Source: a virus (lineage: Duplodnaviria > Heunggongvirae > Uroviricota > Caudoviricetes). Taken from it: a stretch of DNA of 64,000 nt. The stretch lies in IMG/VR virus record IMGVR_UViG_3300045988_003495; one strand, given 5' to 3'. How positions within the stretch are numbered: position 1 is the stretch's first letter; each line of letters begins with the position of its first letter. Position numbers and translations under genes: made by a program. Shown piece by piece: positions 34,269 through 38,099 of this stretch. The notes under the pieces are model-generated. The model did not search any database. It was not told where the DNA came from and saw only the letters and a program-made list of their open reading frames with translations.

Positions 34269-35684
34269 ATGAGCGAATTATTTAAACATGCGCACCTTCA
34301 TGCAGGTCGAACTGAAAATGGTGCTGTAAACCATACTTCATCAATGTCTGCTCTTGTAGACTTTTACAAAGCTGCTGGTTCAAGCCGTAGCAATGTAGAA
34401 ATCTTACCAGACCTGTTCTACAAAGCTTTGCGTGAGGATGTTGATGTTGCAGTCCGTATTTTACTGCATATGCGAGATGTACGAGAAGGTATGGGTGAGC
34501 GTAAAGCCTTCAGAACTGTTTTGCTTCAAGCAATTGAAGACAAAGTTTTAGAGCCTACACAGGTTCTTCGCATTATGGATAAGATTGCAGAGCTTGGTCG
34601 CTTTGATGACTTCAAAATCTTTGTAGGTACTCGTTTCGAGACAGATGCCTTCAAACATTTAGAAGCAGCATTACTAGACCCTGCAACAGCAGGTTTAGCA
34701 GCTAAGTGGTTACCACGAGTCAAACCACGTCATAAGCAGTTTGTAAAACGTTTCTGCAAGTTTGCCAACTTGAGTGAGAAAGAGTACCGCACACTGTTGT
34801 CTGCACTATCTGATACAGTTGAGCAAAAAATCTCTGCTAATGAGTTTGGTAAGATTGACTACAGCAAGATTCCTTCACTTGCTGCTGCACGTTACCAAAA
34901 ACTGTTTAACCGTAAGGATGGAGAACGCTACAAAGCTTACATTGAGTCTTTATCAAAGGGCGAGGCTAAGATTAATGCTGGTGCTGTTTACCCATACGAT
35001 GTGATTAAATCTGTCAAGCATGGTAATGCAGATGTTGCCAATGAGCAGTGGAAAGCACTACCAAACTGGATGGCAGAAGGTGAGAACATCTTGTGTATGA
35101 CTGATGTTTCAGGCTCAATGTCTTGGGTGAATCTTGGTTCAATCACTGCCCTTGATATTGGTGTATCACTTGCCTTGTATGTAGCAGAACGTAATACAGG
35201 TTGCTTTAAGGATGAGTTAATGGTTTATTCAACAAACCCTTACTTCATCGAACTGAGTGGTGATTTACGAAACCGCCATCGTCAGGTGATGCGACATGTT
35301 GAATATGGCTCAACTAACCTACAAGCAGCTTTTGACCGCATTCTTGAGGTAGGTAAGAGAAACAACTTGACTCAGAAAGATATGCCAAGTAAGCTTATCA
35401 TCTTCTCCGATATGGAGTTCAATCAGGTTGATGGAGCTAACGGTCGTACAAACTTTGAAGCAATTCAGAGTAAGTACAAAAAAGCTGGATACGAGATGCC
35501 ACAACTGGTATTCTGGTACTTAGCAAACCGTAATGGTACTTGCGAAGTGTCTGTTAAGGATAACGGTGTAGCGATGGTATCTGGTTTCTCTCCAGCCACT
35601 TTAAAAGCTCTGATTGGTGGTGAGAAGTTTGACCCAATCAGCGTAATGCTCAAAGCAGTAATGATTGACCGTTATATCTGGTAA
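34269..35684 (+). CDS. vWA-domain protein with alpha-helical N-terminal domain (TROVE/Ro60-like architecture?)
   Basis: 471 aa; MIDAS-like motif CMTDVSGSMSW then IIFSDMEF in the C-terminal half; helical N-terminal half of about 270 aa. Confidence 0.55.
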   Translation: MSELFKHAHLHAGRTENGAVNHTSSMSALVDFYKAAGSSRSNVEILPDLFYKALREDVDVAVRILLHMRDVREGMGERKAFRTVLLQAIEDKVLEPTQVLRIMDKIAELGRFDDFKIFVGTRFETDAFKHLEAALLDPATAGLAAKWLPRVKPRHKQFVKRFCKFANLSEKEYRTLLSALSDTVEQKISANEFGKIDYSKIPSLAAARYQKLFNRKDGERYKAYIESLSKGEAKINAGAVYPYDVIKSVKHGNADVANEQWKALPNWMAEGENILCMTDVSGSMSWVNLGSITALDIGVSLALYVAERNTGCFKDELMVYSTNPYFIELSGDLRNRHRQVMRHVEYGSTNLQAAFDRILEVGKRNNLTQKDMPSKLIIFSDMEFNQVDGANGRTNFEAIQSKYKKAGYEMPQLVFWYLANRNGTCEVSVKDNGVAMVSGFSPATLKALIGGEKFDPISVMLKAVMIDRYIW

Positions 35685-35702
35685 AAAGTTTTAAAAAGGG
35701 TA

Positions 35703-35731
35703 TTGACAATGTGTTTGATACCCTTTAATAT
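35703..35731 (+). promoter_or_regulatory. sigma70-like promoter with flanking dyad
   Basis: TTGACA, 17-nt spacer, TAATAT; GGGTAT...ATACCC inverted repeat flanks the -35 and spacer. Confidence 0.5.
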
Positions 35732-35793
35732 GTTCTACATAGAAACGAAACGAGAGCTTTTCTAAGATACTGAAAAATATTTTAAAAAAGTTC

Positions 35794-35823
35794 TTGACAA
35801 CCACTAAAAAATAATGTTAAAGT
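35794..35823 (+). promoter_or_regulatory. sigma70-like promoter driving the tRNA cluster
   Basis: TTGACA (35794-35799), 18-nt spacer, TAAAGT; ACCACT...AGTGGT dyad overlaps; first tRNA starts about 25 nt downstream. Confidence 0.5.
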
Positions 35824-35848
35824 GGTTACATAGAGTTTGAAAAGTTTA

Positions 35849-35924
35849 TCTCTGTTTAGCTCAGCTTGGTAGAGCGTTCCGTTTGGGGCGGTAAGGCCGG
35901 AGGTTCAATTCCTCCAACAGAGAC
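35849..35924 (+). tRNA. tRNA-Pro (anticodon TGG)
   Basis: Manual fold: acceptor tctctgt/acagaga, T-arm ggagg-ttcaatt-cctcc, anticodon loop tttgggg. Confidence 0.65.
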
Positions 35925-35933
35925 CAAATTAAT

Positions 35934-36008
35934 GTTCCAGTAGACAAAATGGTATAGTCACCACTCTTTCAAAGTGGATATTTGAGGGTTCAAATCCCTT
36001 CTGGAACG
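35934..36008 (+). tRNA. tRNA-Glu (anticodon TTC)
   Basis: Acceptor gttccag/ctggaac, T-loop ttcaaat, anticodon stem-loop ccact-ctttcaa-agtgg; CCA encoded. Confidence 0.65.
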
Positions 36009-36103
36009 CCAGTTTTGACAGAAGACCAATTACAGCAAACTTAATCTTATTCATCTGAAGGTAAATCGGACAAAGAAGAGATTTGGTCTGGTCATTAAGA
36101 ATT

Positions 36104-36176
36104 GCGGGTATAGAGAAAGGGCGTCTCACATGTCTCATTAGCATGGTATCGGCAGGTTCGACTCCTGCACCCGCCT
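36104..36176 (+). tRNA. tRNA with CAT anticodon (Met or Ile2)
   Basis: T-arm gcagg-ttcgact-cctgc; anticodon loop ctcatta; acceptor pairing imperfect at the 5' end. Confidence 0.45.
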
Positions 36177-36256
36177 CCAAATTTACAGAAGACCGTATGC
36201 AGCAACAAACTACTTTTTGCGGATAAAAGAAAAAACACGGTCTGGCAATGTATTAA

Positions 36257-36330
36257 GGTTAGGAAGCACATAAGGTATGTGCGGTCGCCTGTTAAGCGAA
36301 TGGCACAGGGTTCGAATCCCTGACTAACCG
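36257..36330 (+). tRNA. tRNA-Asn (anticodon GTT)
   Basis: Anticodon loop ctgttaa; T-arm caggg-ttcgaat-ccctg; CCA encoded. Confidence 0.65.
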
Positions 36331-36342
36331 CCAAATTTAAAT

Positions 36343-36427
36343 GTGTCGTTATCCCGTAGATGGTAGCGGTGGGGACTGTAAATCCCTTGTCATTGAGACT
36401 CGGTAGGTTCGACTCCTACACGGCACA
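36343..36427 (+). tRNA. tRNA-Tyr (anticodon GTA), long variable arm
   Basis: 85 nt; anticodon stem-loop gggga-ctgtaaa-tccct; T-arm gtagg-ttcgact-cctac. Confidence 0.65.
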
Positions 36428-36452
36428 CCAACACTTAGCGAGATACTTAGTT

Positions 36453-36854
36453 ATGAGAGATGAAGTATACAAATCACAACTTGGTATGAGTTTGGGAACT
36501 GCACAAAACAGACTAGTAAAAGATTTGCTATTCGATTTTATATGTAAGACAAATCAAAATAGATGTTTTCAGTGCGGAAAAGAAATGACTAGGGATGATT
36601 TCTCTATCGAGCATAAGACTCCGTGGAGACACAAAGATAATGCAAAAGAACTTTTCTTTTCACTAGATAACATTTCTTATAGCCACCTGCGTTGCAACAT
36701 GAAAGCAGCCAGACCAGCACAGATTTATGATAGAAAGCCTAAGCCAATTAAACACGGCACTGCACACAGCTACTCTAAAGGTTGCAGATGTGATGAGTGT
36801 AGGCTGGCTAAGAATGCTGAGGGTAGGAAGCACTATAACCCCAGAAAGGCGTAG
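36453..36854 (+). CDS. HNH homing endonuclease inside the tRNA cluster
   Basis: CFQCGKEM...FSIEHKTPW...SHLRCNMKAA...CRCDEC; ORF track start 36360 overlaps tRNA-Tyr, in-frame ATG at 36453 is the likelier start. Confidence 0.6.
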   Translation: MRDEVYKSQLGMSLGTAQNRLVKDLLFDFICKTNQNRCFQCGKEMTRDDFSIEHKTPWRHKDNAKELFFSLDNISYSHLRCNMKAARPAQIYDRKPKPIKHGTAHSYSKGCRCDECRLAKNAEGRKHYNPRKA

Positions 36855-36886
36855 GAAGAAGTATTTAAGAAATGGCACATAGTTTT

Positions 36887-36959
36887 GGGGTATTAGTTTA
36901 GACGGTGAAAATACGGGATTATCTCTCCTGAGCCGCGAGTTCGATTCTCACATACCTCG
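36887..36959 (+). tRNA. tRNA with atypical anticodon loop (ttatctc, apparent anticodon ATC; Asp-like?)
   Basis: Good acceptor (ggggtat/atacctc), D-arm and T-arm (gcgag-ttcgatt-ctcac), but A34 and T37 are unusual; Asp is otherwise absent from the cluster. Confidence 0.4.
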
Positions 36960-37110
36960 CCAATTTTGAGAGGGCTATTTAGCCCCTCCCTTAAAGAGTT
37001 CTTACGAGTATCCTTTAAAGGAGCAGAAGACCAAATACAGCAAGTTACTTAAAATTTCAAGCCAATTCAATTTTGAAAAATTTAAAACTTGGTCTGGCTC
37101 AACAAATTTA

Positions 37111-37242
37111 CAGAAGACCGTTTACAGCAAAACTTAAACAATCTATTTCTCGGTAAAGAAAAGGCGAAGGTTCGATTCCTTCACTCGGCAGATGTCGAGT
37201 TGGTGTAATGGTAGCACTTAAGATGATAAACAACGGTCTGGT
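37111..37242 (+). ncRNA. circularly permuted tRNA-like module enclosed by an AGACCGTT/AACGGTCT helix (candidate Y-RNA-like RNA)
   Basis: Order along the strand: T-arm gaagg-ttcgatt-ccttc (37166-37182), acceptor-like hairpin actcggc-agat-gtcgagt (37183-37200), tg, D-arm-like gtgtaatggtagcac (37203-37217); 8-bp closing helix 37115-37122 with 37232-37239. Confidence 0.35.
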
Positions 37243-37392
37243 AATTATCTTTGCAGTAGCTTATGTGGCTAATTATGTCGTCCCATGAGTGCCGATGAAT
37301 TTCCTTAGCATGATTCTAGATTAGCTTAGTAGGAAATGACTCTACAGACCCTTTAGCAAGGTCTGCGTAGGTTACTGCAAAGGCAATTTAAT

Positions 37393-37465
37393 GGAAGTGT
37401 AGCAGAATGGTGATGCGGCAGACTTTTAATCTGACAGGCGATGGGTTCGAATCCCTCCACTTCTA
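37393..37465 (+). tRNA. tRNA-Lys (anticodon TTT)
   Basis: Acceptor ggaagtg/cacttct, anticodon loop cttttaa, T-loop ttcgaat (short T-stem), CCA encoded. Confidence 0.6.
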
Positions 37466-37472
37466 CCAAAAT

Positions 37473-37641: not shown

Positions 37642-37670
37642 TTGACATTGATACGTGACTACTTTATAGT
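37642..37670 (+). promoter_or_regulatory. sigma70-like internal promoter in the tRNA cluster
   Basis: TTGACA, 17-nt spacer, TATAGT. Confidence 0.5.
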
Positions 37671-37874
37671 AACCTTAGTTTTCGTTGCGTAGCGTCTATT
37701 TTGCAAATTTAAAATAAATGCAAACGACAATGTTTTTCTGGCAGTAGCTTGATAGGCTAAACACCAGTGAGGTCTTCCAATCCCTCATCAAAGAATTTGG
37801 CGTACTAGCCCACGGTATGATTAATAAGGTGGGCATCTTTAAGGGCTTTCTAAGAGAGTCTTTAAAGATAATTA

Positions 37875-37953
37875 CGGGGCGTATCTCAGCTGTCTTCTAA
37901 ACAGCCGTTAACCGAGTAAGTGGAGTATGCGGGTTCGAGTCCTGCCGCCTCGA
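37875..37953 (+). tRNA. tRNA-like gene, internal arms atypical (possible anticodon TCT, Arg)
   Basis: Clear acceptor (cggggcg/cgcctcg) and T-arm (gcggg-ttcgagt-cctgc) with CCA; gctgt-cttctaa-acagc hairpin would give TCT but leaves no room for a normal D-arm. Confidence 0.35.
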
Positions 37954-38099
37954 CCAATTTAGTTAGCAGATTACTTAGACGACCTAAGCGGGTCTTCCTG
38001 TAGGGAGGTGGTCTGTATCTCATGTTTTCCAGAACATGTAAATAATCTGAGAAGGGGCTTTACAGTGTTGCGAAAATACGGTAAGCTTCGAATTATAGT

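What the first reader, a model, noticed from the sequence alone, without database searches (positions are those of the whole stretch)
37111..37242. Circularly permuted tRNA-like module enclosed by a helix: candidate Y-RNA-like non-coding RNA
Between tRNA genes there is a canonical T-arm (gaagg-TTCGATT-ccttc) followed immediately by a 7-bp hairpin (actcggc-agat-gtcgagt) and then a D-arm-like sequence (gtgtaatggtagcac), the reverse of normal tRNA order. The hairpin strands pair like an acceptor stem closed by a loop where tRNA ends would be, and the unit is enclosed by an 8-bp helix (AGACCGTT at 37115-37122 with AACGGTCT at 37232-37239). This is the topology expected for a tRNA mimic whose ends sit in an anticodon-stem-equivalent helix, as described for bacterial YrlA-type Y RNAs that bind Ro60-like proteins, and a Ro60-like candidate lies 1.5 kb upstream.
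Basis: seen in the sequence. Interest (0 to 1): 0.75.

Follow-up and report, generated by a model that had tools for sequence, protein, structure and literature searches.

The report
Phage Y-RNA-like tRNA mimic, new handle
A Felix O1-type phage encodes a small RNA built like a circularly permuted tRNA held shut by a conserved stem, next to a gene for a divergent Ro60-like ring protein; the same protein-plus-RNA pairing recurs in many unrelated phages, pointing to an undescribed branch of the Ro60/Y-RNA system.

Summary
In detail: every element sits at the stated coordinates. The window is a Felix O1-like phage. Window 37108-37244 (+) folds as outer helix, AGA/G internal loop, 8-bp helix AGACCGUU/AACGGUCU, single-stranded UA-CAGCAA, then V arm, T arm, closed 7-bp acceptor-like hairpin and D arm.

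- The "enclosing helix" is a conserved handle (5'-AG-N6-UW-CAGCAA ... N6-CU-G-3'), present four times in this tRNA array.
- It lies beside DUF2828 genes in at least 60 of 80 distant phage loci: 144 hits on the gene strand, 12 opposite, about 10 in shuffles.
- Covariation is strong: 22 of 29 pairs have compensatory changes.
- The cargo between handle strands varies: none, permuted tRNA-like, normal-order tRNA bodies, or other folds.

It works like YrlA but fails YrlA membership tests: no GNCGAA motif, no Rfam RF02553 hit (the Bxz1 control is detected), and no TROVE-family partner by sequence. Protein binding and function are inferred, not shown.

Verdict: a new variant of a known kind.

The parts
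37108..37244 (+). Whole unit 4: handle-enclosed, circularly permuted tRNA-like RNA (the finding)
   Evidence: MFE fold. CM R1 gives 93.7 bits, E 5e-17. Kept at >=80% coverage in 246 of 253 matching phage records.
37108..37111 (+). Outer helix, 5' strand TTAC (pairs with GTAA 37241-37244)
   Evidence: It covaries among the four paralogous units: TGAC/GTCA, GAGC/GCTC, TTAC/GTAA.
37112..37114 (+). AGA, 5' side of the internal loop opposite G37240
   Evidence: The same AGA/G loop appears in all four units.
37115..37122 (+). Handle helix, 5' strand AGACCGTT
   Evidence: 7 of 8 pairs show compensatory changes across phages. Position 1 is A in 61/80 and position 2 is G in 77/80 distinct units.
37123..37130 (+). 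Single-stranded TA + CAGCAA motif, directly 3' of the handle 5' strand
   Evidence: Found at the same offset in all 12 permuted units examined; one, L023, has the variant CCGCAA. U at position 9 in 76/80 units. It occupies the position of GNCGAA in YrlA.
37132..37136 (+). Anticodon-stem-like helix, 5' strand ACTTA (pairs with TAAGA 37219-37223; 4 of 5 pairs)
   Evidence: This is the weakest helix: 77% of cells paired, 4 of 5 pairs covary.
37142..37164 (+). Long variable-arm hairpin (UUUCU/AGAAA core)
   Evidence: MFE fold. L012 has CUUUC/GAGAG in its place. Distant relatives have a 5-nt V loop instead.
37166..37182 (+). T arm GAAGG-TTCGATT-CCTTC
   Evidence: Rfam tRNA model positions 43-63, 14.9 bits. 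100% of cells paired.
37183..37200 (+). Acceptor-stem-like hairpin ACTCGGC-AGAT-GTCGAGT (7 bp, closed by a 4-nt loop)
   Evidence: 7 of 7 pairs covary. The sequence is fully replaced in L010/L011 (ACACGT/GCGTGT) and L012/L013 (ACCCTTCG/AGAAGGGT) with pairing kept.
37201..37217 (+). U8-N9 equivalent (TG) and D arm GTGT-AATGGTA-GCAC with A14 and G18G19 equivalents
37232..37240 (+). Handle helix, 3' strand AACGGTCT, plus the conserved unpaired G
   Evidence: The strand ends in C-U in 72/80 and 67/80 units.
37241..37244 (+). Outer helix, 3' strand GTAA
36016..36094 (+). Unit 1: paralogous handle RNA without tRNA-like cargo (AGACCAAT-TA-CAGCAA ... TTTGGTCT-G)
   Evidence: Repeat family D9, fold, R1 35.2 bits. 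Present in all Felix-like loci.
36183..36248 (+). Unit 2: paralogous handle RNA (AGACCGTA-TG-CAGCAA ... CACGGTCT-G)
   Evidence: R1 37.9 bits.
37021..37100 (+). Unit 3: paralogous handle RNA (AGACCAAA-TA-CAGCAA ... CTTGGTCT-G), immediately upstream of unit 4
34269..35684 (+). Gene for the DUF2828+DUF7788 protein, a divergent Ro60-like ring (HEAT-repeat ring + vWA with intact MIDAS); the inferred protein partner
35703..35823 (+). Two sigma-70-like promoters (TTGACA-17-TAATAT; TTGACA-18-TAAAGT) between the gene and the tRNA/handle-RNA array
   Evidence: Consensus scan only. The next promoter-like site on this strand is at 37642.

Best explanation
Window 37108-37244 encodes a small non-coding RNA of the Y-RNA type. 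It is probably cut out of the polycistronic tRNA-array transcript.

**Two modules**
1. A handle, formed by pairing of the 5' and 3' ends: an 8-bp helix, an AGA/G internal loop, and the single-stranded motif UA-CAGCAA just 3' of the 5' strand.
2. A cargo that mimics a circularly permuted tRNA: variable arm, T arm, acceptor stem closed by a loop, and D arm. It has no anticodon loop and no free CCA end.

**Shown here**
- The structure is real and under selection.
- The handle is a conserved, strand-specific companion of genes for DUF2828 proteins in many distant phages.
- That protein has the Ro60 ring + vWA fold.

**Inferred**
- The phage Ro60-like ring binds the handle, by analogy with Ro60 binding the terminal stem and 5'-strand motif of Y RNAs.
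- The tRNA-like elbow recruits or blocks a second, tRNA-recognising factor. The RNA would then tether or gate the ring during infection, as Y RNA tethers Rsr to PNPase.

Units 1-3 in the same array would be cargo-less or alternative-cargo partners of the same protein, comparable to YrlB beside YrlA.
For: **Structure**
- MFE topology.
- On a hand-parsed alignment of 7 units from 5 lineages, 92.6% of cells are paired, against 64.5% in shuffles (0 of 500 reach it) and 34-44% when the partners are slid. 22 of 29 pairs carry compensatory changes.
- The handle helix was not used to pick those sequences (they came from the T/AS/D descriptor), yet 7 of its 8 pairs covary.

**Handle next to the gene**
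- Strict scan: 144 hits on the gene strand, 12 on the opposite strand, 4-13 in shuffles.
- 109 of the 144 lie within 1 kb of the gene; 60 of 80 loci have at least one within 2.5 kb.
- Positions the scan did not constrain are conserved: G2 77/80, U9 76/80, across 56 distinct helix 8-mers.
- CM R1: 105 of 106 hits are on the gene strand. Non-seed tRNA-like units score 53-80 bits.
- DUF2828 is the only gene shared by all 69 loci compared; the next real families reach 17 or fewer. Loci with no tRNA genes still carry handle units.

**Protein**
- AF2 pLDDT 87.6.
- Foldseek: the top 12 hits are all Ro60/TROVE, TM up to 0.66 over the full length.
- The MIDAS motif DxSxS..T..D is invariant.

**Architecture shared with a genuine phage YrlA**
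- Bxz1: 5' stem + GCCGAGAG + V-T-AS-D + 3' stem.

**Conservation**
- 246 of 253 Felix O1-like phage records keep unit 4.
Against: - There is no expression, end-mapping or binding data. No Felixounavirus transcriptome exists in the searchable literature.
- The protein-RNA link rests on co-localisation and analogy only.
- Sequence methods do not connect the protein to TROVE: Pfam gives no TROVE hit, a profile search of PDB sequences finds no Ro60, and hhalign to Bxz1 gp220 aligns only 40 residues around the MIDAS motif.
- The handle lacks the GNCGAA/GGUCCGA-type motif that Ro60 proteins are known to contact.
- One Felix-like genome (L004) has lost the 3' half of unit 4 through a T-arm to T-arm deletion, so the unit is dispensable at least there.
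- In Felix-like phages the anticodon-stem-like helix is weak, and the 15:48 Levitt pair is not canonical (A15 opposite C48).
- 20 of 80 loci lacked a strict-motif unit, although several of these carry variants.
Confidence: 0.62

Rival explanations
1. The handle is a processing or regulatory signal and not a ligand of the DUF2828 protein. It could be a site for a host or phage endoribonuclease that punctuates the transcript, or a cis-acting autoregulatory element of the DUF2828 operon. The enclosed tRNA-like fold would then be a stabilising or RNase P/Z-directing module.
For: - Units abut tRNA genes: unit 1 starts 5 nt after tRNA-Glu and unit 2 starts 4 nt after tRNA-Met.
- In many loci the units lie within about 100 nt of the gene's start or stop, so they may share its transcript.
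- Some ~240-nt units may enclose small ORFs.
Against: - A single-stranded, strand-specific hexamer and an unpaired G, held at fixed register over 56 different helix sequences, point to a sequence-specific protein partner and not to generic double-stranded RNA cleavage.
- Multiple copies occur per locus, up to 7 in L018.
- In Felix-like phages separate promoters lie between the gene and the units, which argues against simple cis-autoregulation.
- No other conserved neighbouring gene could encode a dedicated nuclease.
Confidence: 0.15
2. The RNA is a free-standing tRNA mimic or decoy that acts without the Ro60-like protein. It might soak up or trigger a host tRNA-binding factor: a modification enzyme, RNase P, a CCA-adding enzyme, or an acceptor/elbow-recognising toxin of an anti-phage system. 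That would fit its position in a phage tRNA array.
For: - tRNA elbow nucleotides are kept: U8, A14, G18G19, the UUCGAUU T loop, and G53-C61.
- Seven related units encode N-CCA right after a 7-bp acceptor strand.
Against: - This does not explain the conserved handle or the cargo-less units 1-3.
- It does not explain the tight linkage to DUF2828 genes in phages that have no tRNA genes nearby.
- It is compatible with the best explanation as the role of the cargo module, so it is only partly a rival.
Confidence: 0.12
3. It is a permuted tRNA or tmRNA gene whose transcript is rearranged or cut into a translationally active molecule. Models would be the permuted tRNA genes of Cyanidioschyzon or two-piece tmRNA.
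For: - The 3' half precedes the 5' half.
- ARAGORN calls a permuted 'tmRNA*' over the homologous unit in L013.
- Relatives encode CCA in the acceptor loop.
Against: - There is no anticodon loop. The anticodon-like stem opens into the handle.
- There is no bulge-helix-bulge motif.
- Rfam tmRNA_permuted does not hit the window, although it finds a real one in L050 at 90.9 bits.
- The unit has no tag reading frame.
- The same handle also encloses normal-order tRNA bodies, or nothing at all.
Confidence: 0.04
4. It consists of two decayed tRNA halves, a recombination scar in a tRNA array with no function of its own.
For: - tRNA arrays recombine: L004 carries a T-arm to T-arm deletion.
- The window's tRNA-Arg(UCU) homologue is degenerate.
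Against: - The same architecture is kept, with compensatory changes, in phages whose partner proteins are only about 40% identical.
- The acceptor-like strands are complementary to each other, which two unrelated neighbouring tRNAs would not give.
- 246 of 253 records retain the unit.
Confidence: 0.02

Closest known systems
YrlA (Y RNA-like A; Rfam RF02553) with Ro60/Rsr, including phage examples (mycobacteriophage Bxz1/ET08, Caulobacter phage CcrColossus, Bacillus phage G, Thermus phage phiLo Yrl1/2)
   Same: - Modular plan: the 5' and 3' ends pair into a stem that carries a single-stranded 5'-strand motif.
- The effector module is a permuted tRNA mimic in the order V-T-AS-D, with a closed acceptor stem and no anticodon loop.
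- It is encoded close to, and on the same strand as, a Ro60-fold ring + vWA protein.
- It is accompanied by smaller paralogous RNAs that share the stem, as YrlB accompanies YrlA.
- Long variable arms occur in some members.
(PMC4201824; 10.1101/312249; PMC12135203.)
   Different: - The motif is UA-CAGCAA, not GNCGAAN0-1G.
- RF02553 gives no hit even at E <= 10, whereas Bxz1's YrlA scores 32.5 bits.
- My model matches Bxz1's YrlA only over the tRNA-like part.
- The partner protein is Pfam DUF2828+DUF7788, not TROVE+vWA_Ro60.
- The RNA sits inside a 25-gene tRNA array and is present in four handle-bearing copies.
- The cargo is interchangeable across the family, including normal-order tRNA bodies.
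Metazoan and Deinococcus Y RNAs (Rfam Y_RNA; Yrn1) with Ro60
   Same: A terminal stem with an internal loop or bulge serves as the protein-binding site, and a variable effector module tethers a second protein (10.1101/312249).
   Different: - There is no GGUCCGA-type helix.
- The effector module here is an explicit tRNA mimic.
- No Rfam Y_RNA hit.
Permuted tRNA genes / two-piece (permuted) tmRNA
   Same: The tRNA 3' half is encoded before the 5' half. ARAGORN's permuted-tmRNA detector fires on a homologue.
   Different: There is no anticodon loop, no tag ORF, no pseudoknots, and no Rfam tmRNA_permuted hit in the window.

Membership tests
YrlA (Rfam RF02553; Chen et al. 2014) | tRNA-like domain in the order V, T arm, closed acceptor-like stem, D arm | tested here: met
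   Covariation in the T, AS and D helices.
YrlA (Rfam RF02553; Chen et al. 2014) | 5' and 3' ends pair into a stem that encloses the tRNA-like domain | tested here: met
   8-bp helix with 7 of 8 pairs covarying, plus an outer 4-bp helix.
YrlA (Rfam RF02553; Chen et al. 2014) | GNCGAAN0-1G motif near the 5' end (the presumed Ro60 contact) | tested here: not met
   The only match in 35690-37400 is GGCGAAGG at 37163, at the V/T-arm junction. It is absent from all 11 related units. CAGCAA (CCGCAA in L023) occupies the 5' position in all 12 units. The Bxz1 control has GCCGAGAG there.
YrlA (Rfam RF02553; Chen et al. 2014) | Match to the family covariance model | tested here: not met
   No RF02553 hit at the gathering score or at E <= 10 on 36950-37400. 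None in 8 related loci at the gathering score. Positive control: Bxz1 YrlA at 32.5 bits, E 4.5e-4.
YrlA (Rfam RF02553; Chen et al. 2014) | Encoded within ~4 kb of, and on the same strand as, a TROVE-domain Ro60 gene | tested here: inconclusive
   It lies 1.4 kb downstream, on the same strand, of a protein with the Ro60 fold. That protein has no Pfam TROVE match and only a MIDAS-level profile similarity to Bxz1 Ro60.
YrlA (Rfam RF02553; Chen et al. 2014) | tRNA tertiary-interaction nucleotides, including a covarying 15:48 Levitt pair | tested here: inconclusive
   U8, A14, G18G19, the UUCGAUU loop and G53-C61 are present in the window. Position 15:48 is A opposite C in the window. It is G15:C48 in L018a/L073/L023 and A15:U48 in L037 (parse).
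YrlA (Rfam RF02553; Chen et al. 2014) | Bound by Ro60/Rsr in vivo; modified by TruB and DusA | not testable with these tools
   Needs immunoprecipitation and modification mapping.
Ro60/TROVE proteins (for ORF 34269-35684) | Pfam TROVE (PF05731) and vWA_Ro60 (PF25045) sequence signatures | tested here: not met
   Only DUF2828 and DUF7788 are matched. The Bxz1 gp220 control hits both TROVE and vWA_Ro60.
Ro60/TROVE proteins (for ORF 34269-35684) | HEAT-repeat ring followed by a vWA domain with a MIDAS motif (three-dimensional fold) | tested here: met
Canonical tRNA | Cloverleaf in normal order with an anticodon loop, detected by ARAGORN or Rfam RF00005 | tested here: not met
   ARAGORN makes no call at 36963-37392. 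Rfam tRNA matches the T arm only, at 14.9 bits.
Permuted (two-piece) tmRNA | Match to RF04321, and a tag-peptide reading frame | tested here: not met
   No hit in the window. The model does detect L050 at 90.9 bits.

The most novel reading that the evidence does not exclude
DUF2828 proteins and CAGCAA-handle RNAs form a distinct, widespread phage ribonucleoprotein system that runs parallel to Ro60/Y RNA.

A constant protein-binding handle would display interchangeable cargo. The cargo includes tRNA bodies in three topologies: permuted; handle in the acceptor position; and handle in the anticodon arm of an otherwise normal tRNA with an encoded CCA. Some permuted members carry N-CCA after a 7-bp acceptor strand. 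RNase P could process these into two-piece mimics with genuine acceptor ends.

If true, this would give the first RNA ligand and a first functional foothold for the uncharacterised DUF2828 family.
Probability: 0.45. Interest if true: 0.85.

Novelty: new variant of a known kind. Interest (0 to 1): 0.72.

Why it matters
- **A second, sequence-distinct branch.** Ro60/Y-RNA particles are ancient RNA-surveillance machines whose bacterial and viral roles are still unclear. This looks like a separate branch with its own recognition motif, found in classic, easily manipulated coliphages and Salmonella phages (Felix O1 and relatives) and in many other phages.
- **Size of the family.** 589 of 600 IMG/VR candidate stretches encode relatives, and 3501 proteins match at E <= 1e-5.
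- **A testable RNA partner for an unknown family.** It assigns a concrete RNA partner to a domain-of-unknown-function family.
- **Design principle.** The tRNA elbow appears to be the selected cargo feature, because it is presented in several permutations.
- **Annotation.** The RNAs are unannotated, or overlaid by spurious 'hypothetical protein' ORFs, in about 250 deposited genomes.

Tried and rejected
- **Rfam.** No Y RNA or YrlA hit at the gathering score on the window. The permissive scan of 36950-37400 gave only a T-arm fragment and chance snoRNA-type hits. 37240-37400 gave chance hits only.
- **ARAGORN.** No gene is called at the locus.
- **Sequence links from the protein to Ro60.** phmmer and a profile hmmsearch against PDB sequences found nothing relevant. 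hhalign against Bxz1 gp220 aligned only the MIDAS segment. The Ro60 relationship therefore rests on predicted structure.
- **Plain MAFFT alignment** of 12 units slipped in the AS and D regions. I replaced it with hand-parsed, N-padded sequences that were checked against the real sequence. The first padded attempt shifted one row and was redone.
- **DUF5681 neighbour as a conserved partner.** Rejected: it is found only in the 15 Felix-like loci.
- **GNCGAA motif.** The single match is at the V/T junction and is not conserved.
- **Bulge-helix-bulge / permuted-tRNA maturation model.** Rejected on anatomy: there is no anticodon loop, and the same handle also encloses nothing or normal-order bodies.
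- **Literature searches.** Felix O1 + Ro60, DUF2828, and Felixounavirus transcriptome returned nothing relevant. The Annual Review PMC10870794 is not held.

Full report
**1. The observation**

- T arm GAAGG-TTCGATT-CCTTC, 37166-37182
- 7-bp hairpin ACTCGGC-AGAT-GTCGAGT, 37183-37200
- TG, then GTGT-AATGGTA-GCAC, 37201-37217
- AGACCGTT 37115-37122, complementary to AACGGTCT 37232-37239

The minimum-free-energy fold of 37105-37250 gives this topology without any constraint, plus a variable-arm hairpin and a short anticodon-stem-like helix. The thermodynamic z-score is modest (-2.06). The region lies between tRNA-Asp (36887-36962) and tRNA-Lys (37393-37468) in a 25-gene tRNA array. ARAGORN and Rfam call nothing there. 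At E <= 10 Rfam reports only the T arm as a tRNA fragment of 14.9 bits.

**2. Where the window comes from**

The inter-tRNA region matches 252 phage records at 80-99% identity. These are Escherichia, Salmonella, Shigella and Citrobacter phages of the Felix O1 type, genus Felixounavirus and relatives. Unit 4 alone is retained at 80% coverage or more in 246 of 253 matching records, including Felix O1 itself. The deposited annotation there is 'none', 'unknown' or 'hypothetical protein'.

**3. The upstream protein**

- ORF 34269-35684 (471 aa) matches Pfam DUF7788 and DUF2828 and not TROVE. PHROGs places it in phrog_850, 'RNA-binding protein'.
- Sequence searches against PDB chains find no Ro60.
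- hhalign against a genuine phage Ro60 aligns only 40 residues around the MIDAS motif DVSGSM. That control is Bxz1 gp220, which does hit TROVE and vWA_Ro60.
- An AlphaFold2 model built on 39 diverse homologues is confident: pLDDT 87.6, pTM 0.88.
- Foldseek against the PDB returns Ro60/TROVE structures as all 12 best hits, aligned over the full length, with TM up to 0.66.
- The MIDAS residues are invariant in the family alignment.

The protein is therefore a divergent Ro60-like ring. This rests on predicted structure.

**4. The enclosing helix is a conserved handle**

A repeat search of the tRNA region showed that CAGAAGACC-N4-ACAGCAA occurs four times (family D9). Each copy is followed 40-110 nt later by the complementary NNGGTCTGG. 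All four units fold alike: a 4-bp outer helix that differs between units (TGAC/GTCA, GAGC/GCTC, TTAC/GTAA), an AGA/G internal loop, then the AGACC.../...GGUCU helix, whose inner pairs also differ (AA/UU, GU/AC, GUU/AAC). Only unit 4 carries the tRNA-like insert. All Felix-like loci have the four units.

**5. Distant phages**

I used an alignment of the protein family to fetch 80 loci from IMG/VR, with protein identity down to about 40%. Two independent scans were run.

(a) *A descriptor for T arm + hairpin + 2 nt + D arm, blind to any handle.* It found 32 hits, against 0 in shuffled sequence.
- Apart from tandem-tRNA false positives, the hits are the Felix-type units and modules next to the DUF2828 gene, on its strand, in L018, L023, L037, L073, L066 and L039.
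- Within the Felix group the acceptor-like hairpin is completely replaced with pairing kept: ACTCGGC/GTCGAGT, ACACGT/GCGTGT, ACCCTTCG/AGAAGGGT.
- Each of these modules turned out to be enclosed by an 8-nt strand, 2 nt, CAGCAA ... a complementary strand, then G.

(b) *A handle scan, blind to the interior.* It required CAGCAA, at least 7 contiguous pairs and a 3' G.
- It gave 144 hits on the gene strand, 12 on the opposite strand and 4-13 in ten shuffles.
- 109 of the 144 hits lie within 1 kb of the gene.
- 60 of 80 loci have at least one unit within 2.5 kb. Several of the remaining loci carry variants such as CCGCAA, CAGCCA or 5-6-bp helices.
- Among 80 units with distinct handles there are 56 different helix 8-mers. 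Positions the scan left free are nevertheless conserved: A1 61/80, G2 77/80, U9 76/80, W10 72/80, and C-U closing the 3' strand in 72/80 and 67/80.

Clustering of neighbouring ORFs shows DUF2828 is the only gene common to all loci. The next real families reach 17 or fewer of 69. Loci without any tRNA gene still have handle units.

**6. Formal covariation**

I parsed seven clean permuted units from five lineages into segments by hand and checked each against the real sequence. Variable loops were padded with N so the columns stayed in register. For the named structure of 29 pairs in 5 helices:
- 92.6% of cells form standard pairs, against 64.5% in shuffles (0 of 500 reach it) and 34-44% when the partners are slid.
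- 22 pairs have changes on both sides.
- By helix, the pairs that covary are: handle 7 of 8, acceptor-like hairpin 7 of 7, anticodon-like helix 4 of 5 (77% paired), T arm 2 of 5 (the rest invariant), D arm 2 of 4.

*Caveat:* the T, AS and D helices were part of the selection descriptor. The handle was not.

A covariance model built on this alignment was searched over 876 kb. It gave 106 hits, 105 of them on the gene strand. Units not used as seeds scored strongly: L013 79.6, L039 62.6, L018b 62.2, L066b 55.0 and L079 53.4 bits.

**7. Comparison with true YrlA**

Chen et al. 2014 (PMC4201824) define YrlA by three features: a GNCGAAN0-1G motif near the 5' end; a V-T-AS-D tRNA-like domain; and location within 4 kb of a TROVE-domain Ro60 gene on the same strand. 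They note that dimeric tRNAs can be false positives. Wang et al. 2018 (10.1101/312249) describe most YrlAs as circularly permuted tRNAs with closed acceptor stems, some with long variable arms.

As a positive control I fetched mycobacteriophage Bxz1.
- Rfam does hold YrlA (RF02553, gathering score 69). It finds Bxz1's YrlA upstream of gp220 at 32.5 bits, E 4.5e-4. The window gave no YrlA hit even at E <= 10.
- My model matches Bxz1's YrlA only over positions 50-140, the V-T-AS-D part, and not over the handle.
- Bxz1's RNA has the plan stem GGGGAGGCAG, GCCGAGAG, tRNA-like domain, stem.
- The window's RNA has the same plan with UA-CAGCAA in place of the GNCGAA-type motif. Its only GNCGAAG match lies at the V/T junction and is not conserved.

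So it works like a YrlA but fails the family's sequence-level membership tests.

**8. Cargo diversity (beyond the finding)**

Between handle strands the family carries:
- nothing (41-72-nt units);
- permuted tRNA-like modules;
- T-D modules without an acceptor hairpin (L018 4319, L019 2215);
- normal-order D-anticodon-T bodies with the handle in the acceptor position (L066 8329-8428, where Rfam tRNA matches positions 5-66 at 55.7 bits; L075 8192);
- other folds.

In L039, two Rfam-scored tRNAs (56.9 and 40.9 bits) carry a ~50-nt anticodon-arm insert that is a handle closed by a loop, and they encode CCA.

Seven permuted units encode N-CCA immediately after a 7-bp acceptor strand: L012/L013, L018a, L018b, L066a, L039 and L079. 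The window's unit has a tight AGAU loop instead. The common denominator of the tRNA-like cargos is the D/T elbow.

**9. Expression context**

Two sigma-70-like promoters lie between the gene's stop codon and the first tRNA (35703, 35794). The next on this strand is at 37642 (consensus matches only). Units 1-4 would then be co-transcribed with tRNAs and released by processing. No transcriptome for this phage group is in the searchable literature. No paper links Felix O1 or DUF2828 with Ro60. Known phage Ro60/Y-like pairs are mycobacteriophages, CcrColossus, Bacillus phage G and Thermus phiLo (PMC4201824, PMC12135203).

**10. Verdict**

*Shown:* a conserved, covarying, strand-specific RNA architecture; its linkage to DUF2828 genes; and the Ro60 fold of that protein (predicted).

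*Inferred:* the ring binds the handle and the tRNA-like elbow engages a second factor.

*Against:* there are no binding or expression data; the unit is lost in one isolate (L004); the anticodon-like helix is weak; and the Levitt pair is non-canonical in the window.

I rate it a new variant of a known kind, interest 0.72.

Noticed in passing
window 36016-36094, 36183-36248, 37021-37100: Three further small units share the finding's handle (CAGAAGACC-N4-CAGCAA ... GGTCTGG) but have no tRNA-like insert. Two of them start 4-5 nt after a tRNA 3' end. They look like YrlB-type companions of unit 4.
   Followed up: yes
window 37249-37383: A separate, very stable structured RNA lies directly after unit 4 (MFE -48.6 kcal/mol, z -3.99). 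It has a ~17-bp closing stem and three hairpins. The last hairpin, CAGACC-CUUUAGCAA-GGUCUG, resembles a handle closed on itself. Eight pairs show compensatory changes among Felix-like phages, and the interior is entirely different in L002 and L008. No Rfam match.
   Followed up: partly
L039 7895-8015 and 8025-8137; L066 8329-8428; L075 8192-8315: The same handle occurs in non-permuted settings. In L039 it closes the anticodon arm of otherwise normal tRNAs that encode CCA. In L066 and L075 it replaces the acceptor stem of a D-anticodon-T body. The tandem L039 copies look like an intermediate for permutation by duplication.
   Followed up: partly
L012 8504-8559, L013 8449-8504, L018 5378-5509 and 5752-5881, L066 8439-8532, L039 8154-8289, L079 7470-7602: In seven permuted units the acceptor-like loop begins with a discriminator base + CCA directly after a 7-bp strand. 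This suggests descent from, or processing to, a real tRNA 3' end. Compare M. smegmatis YrlA, which is cut by RNase P and receives CCA. The window's unit lacks this feature.
   Followed up: partly
L004 8445-8560: One Felix-like genome has a deletion that joins the T arm of unit 4 to the T arm of tRNA-Lys. It removes the 3' half of the unit and the 5' part of the tRNA.
   Followed up: yes
window 36887-36962: ARAGORN reads this tRNA-Asp with anticodon AUC. The orthologous tRNA in L010, L012 and L013 has GUC.
   Followed up: no
window 37860-37965: The position where relatives have tRNA-Arg(UCU) keeps the anticodon arm (CUUCUAA loop), T arm and CCA. Its 5' half is diverged and an extra ~17 nt lies before the T arm. 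Neither ARAGORN nor Rfam calls a tRNA there. A sequence resembling the 5' end of the 37249 element occurs at 37741-37760 (family D11).
   Followed up: partly
window 36360-36854: An HNH endonuclease ORF (phrog_23251, E 3e-67) starts inside tRNA-Tyr and fills the gap to tRNA-Asp. It is probably a homing-endonuclease insertion in the tRNA array. L010-L013 lack both tRNA-Tyr and this gap.
   Followed up: no
L050 2000-2281; L044, L045, L069, L076, L078 about 5 kb downstream of the gene: A genuine permuted tmRNA (Rfam RF04321, 90.9 bits) lies 2 kb upstream of a DUF2828 gene in L050. ARAGORN also predicts standard tmRNAs near the gene in five other phage loci.
   Followed up: no
GenBank OQ174506.1 (Escherichia phage REP7) 26356-26500: The deposited annotation lists a 'tRNA-Thr' under the match to unit 4. 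Several other records place 'hypothetical protein' ORFs over it. These are probably mis-annotations of the tRNA-like RNA.
   Followed up: no
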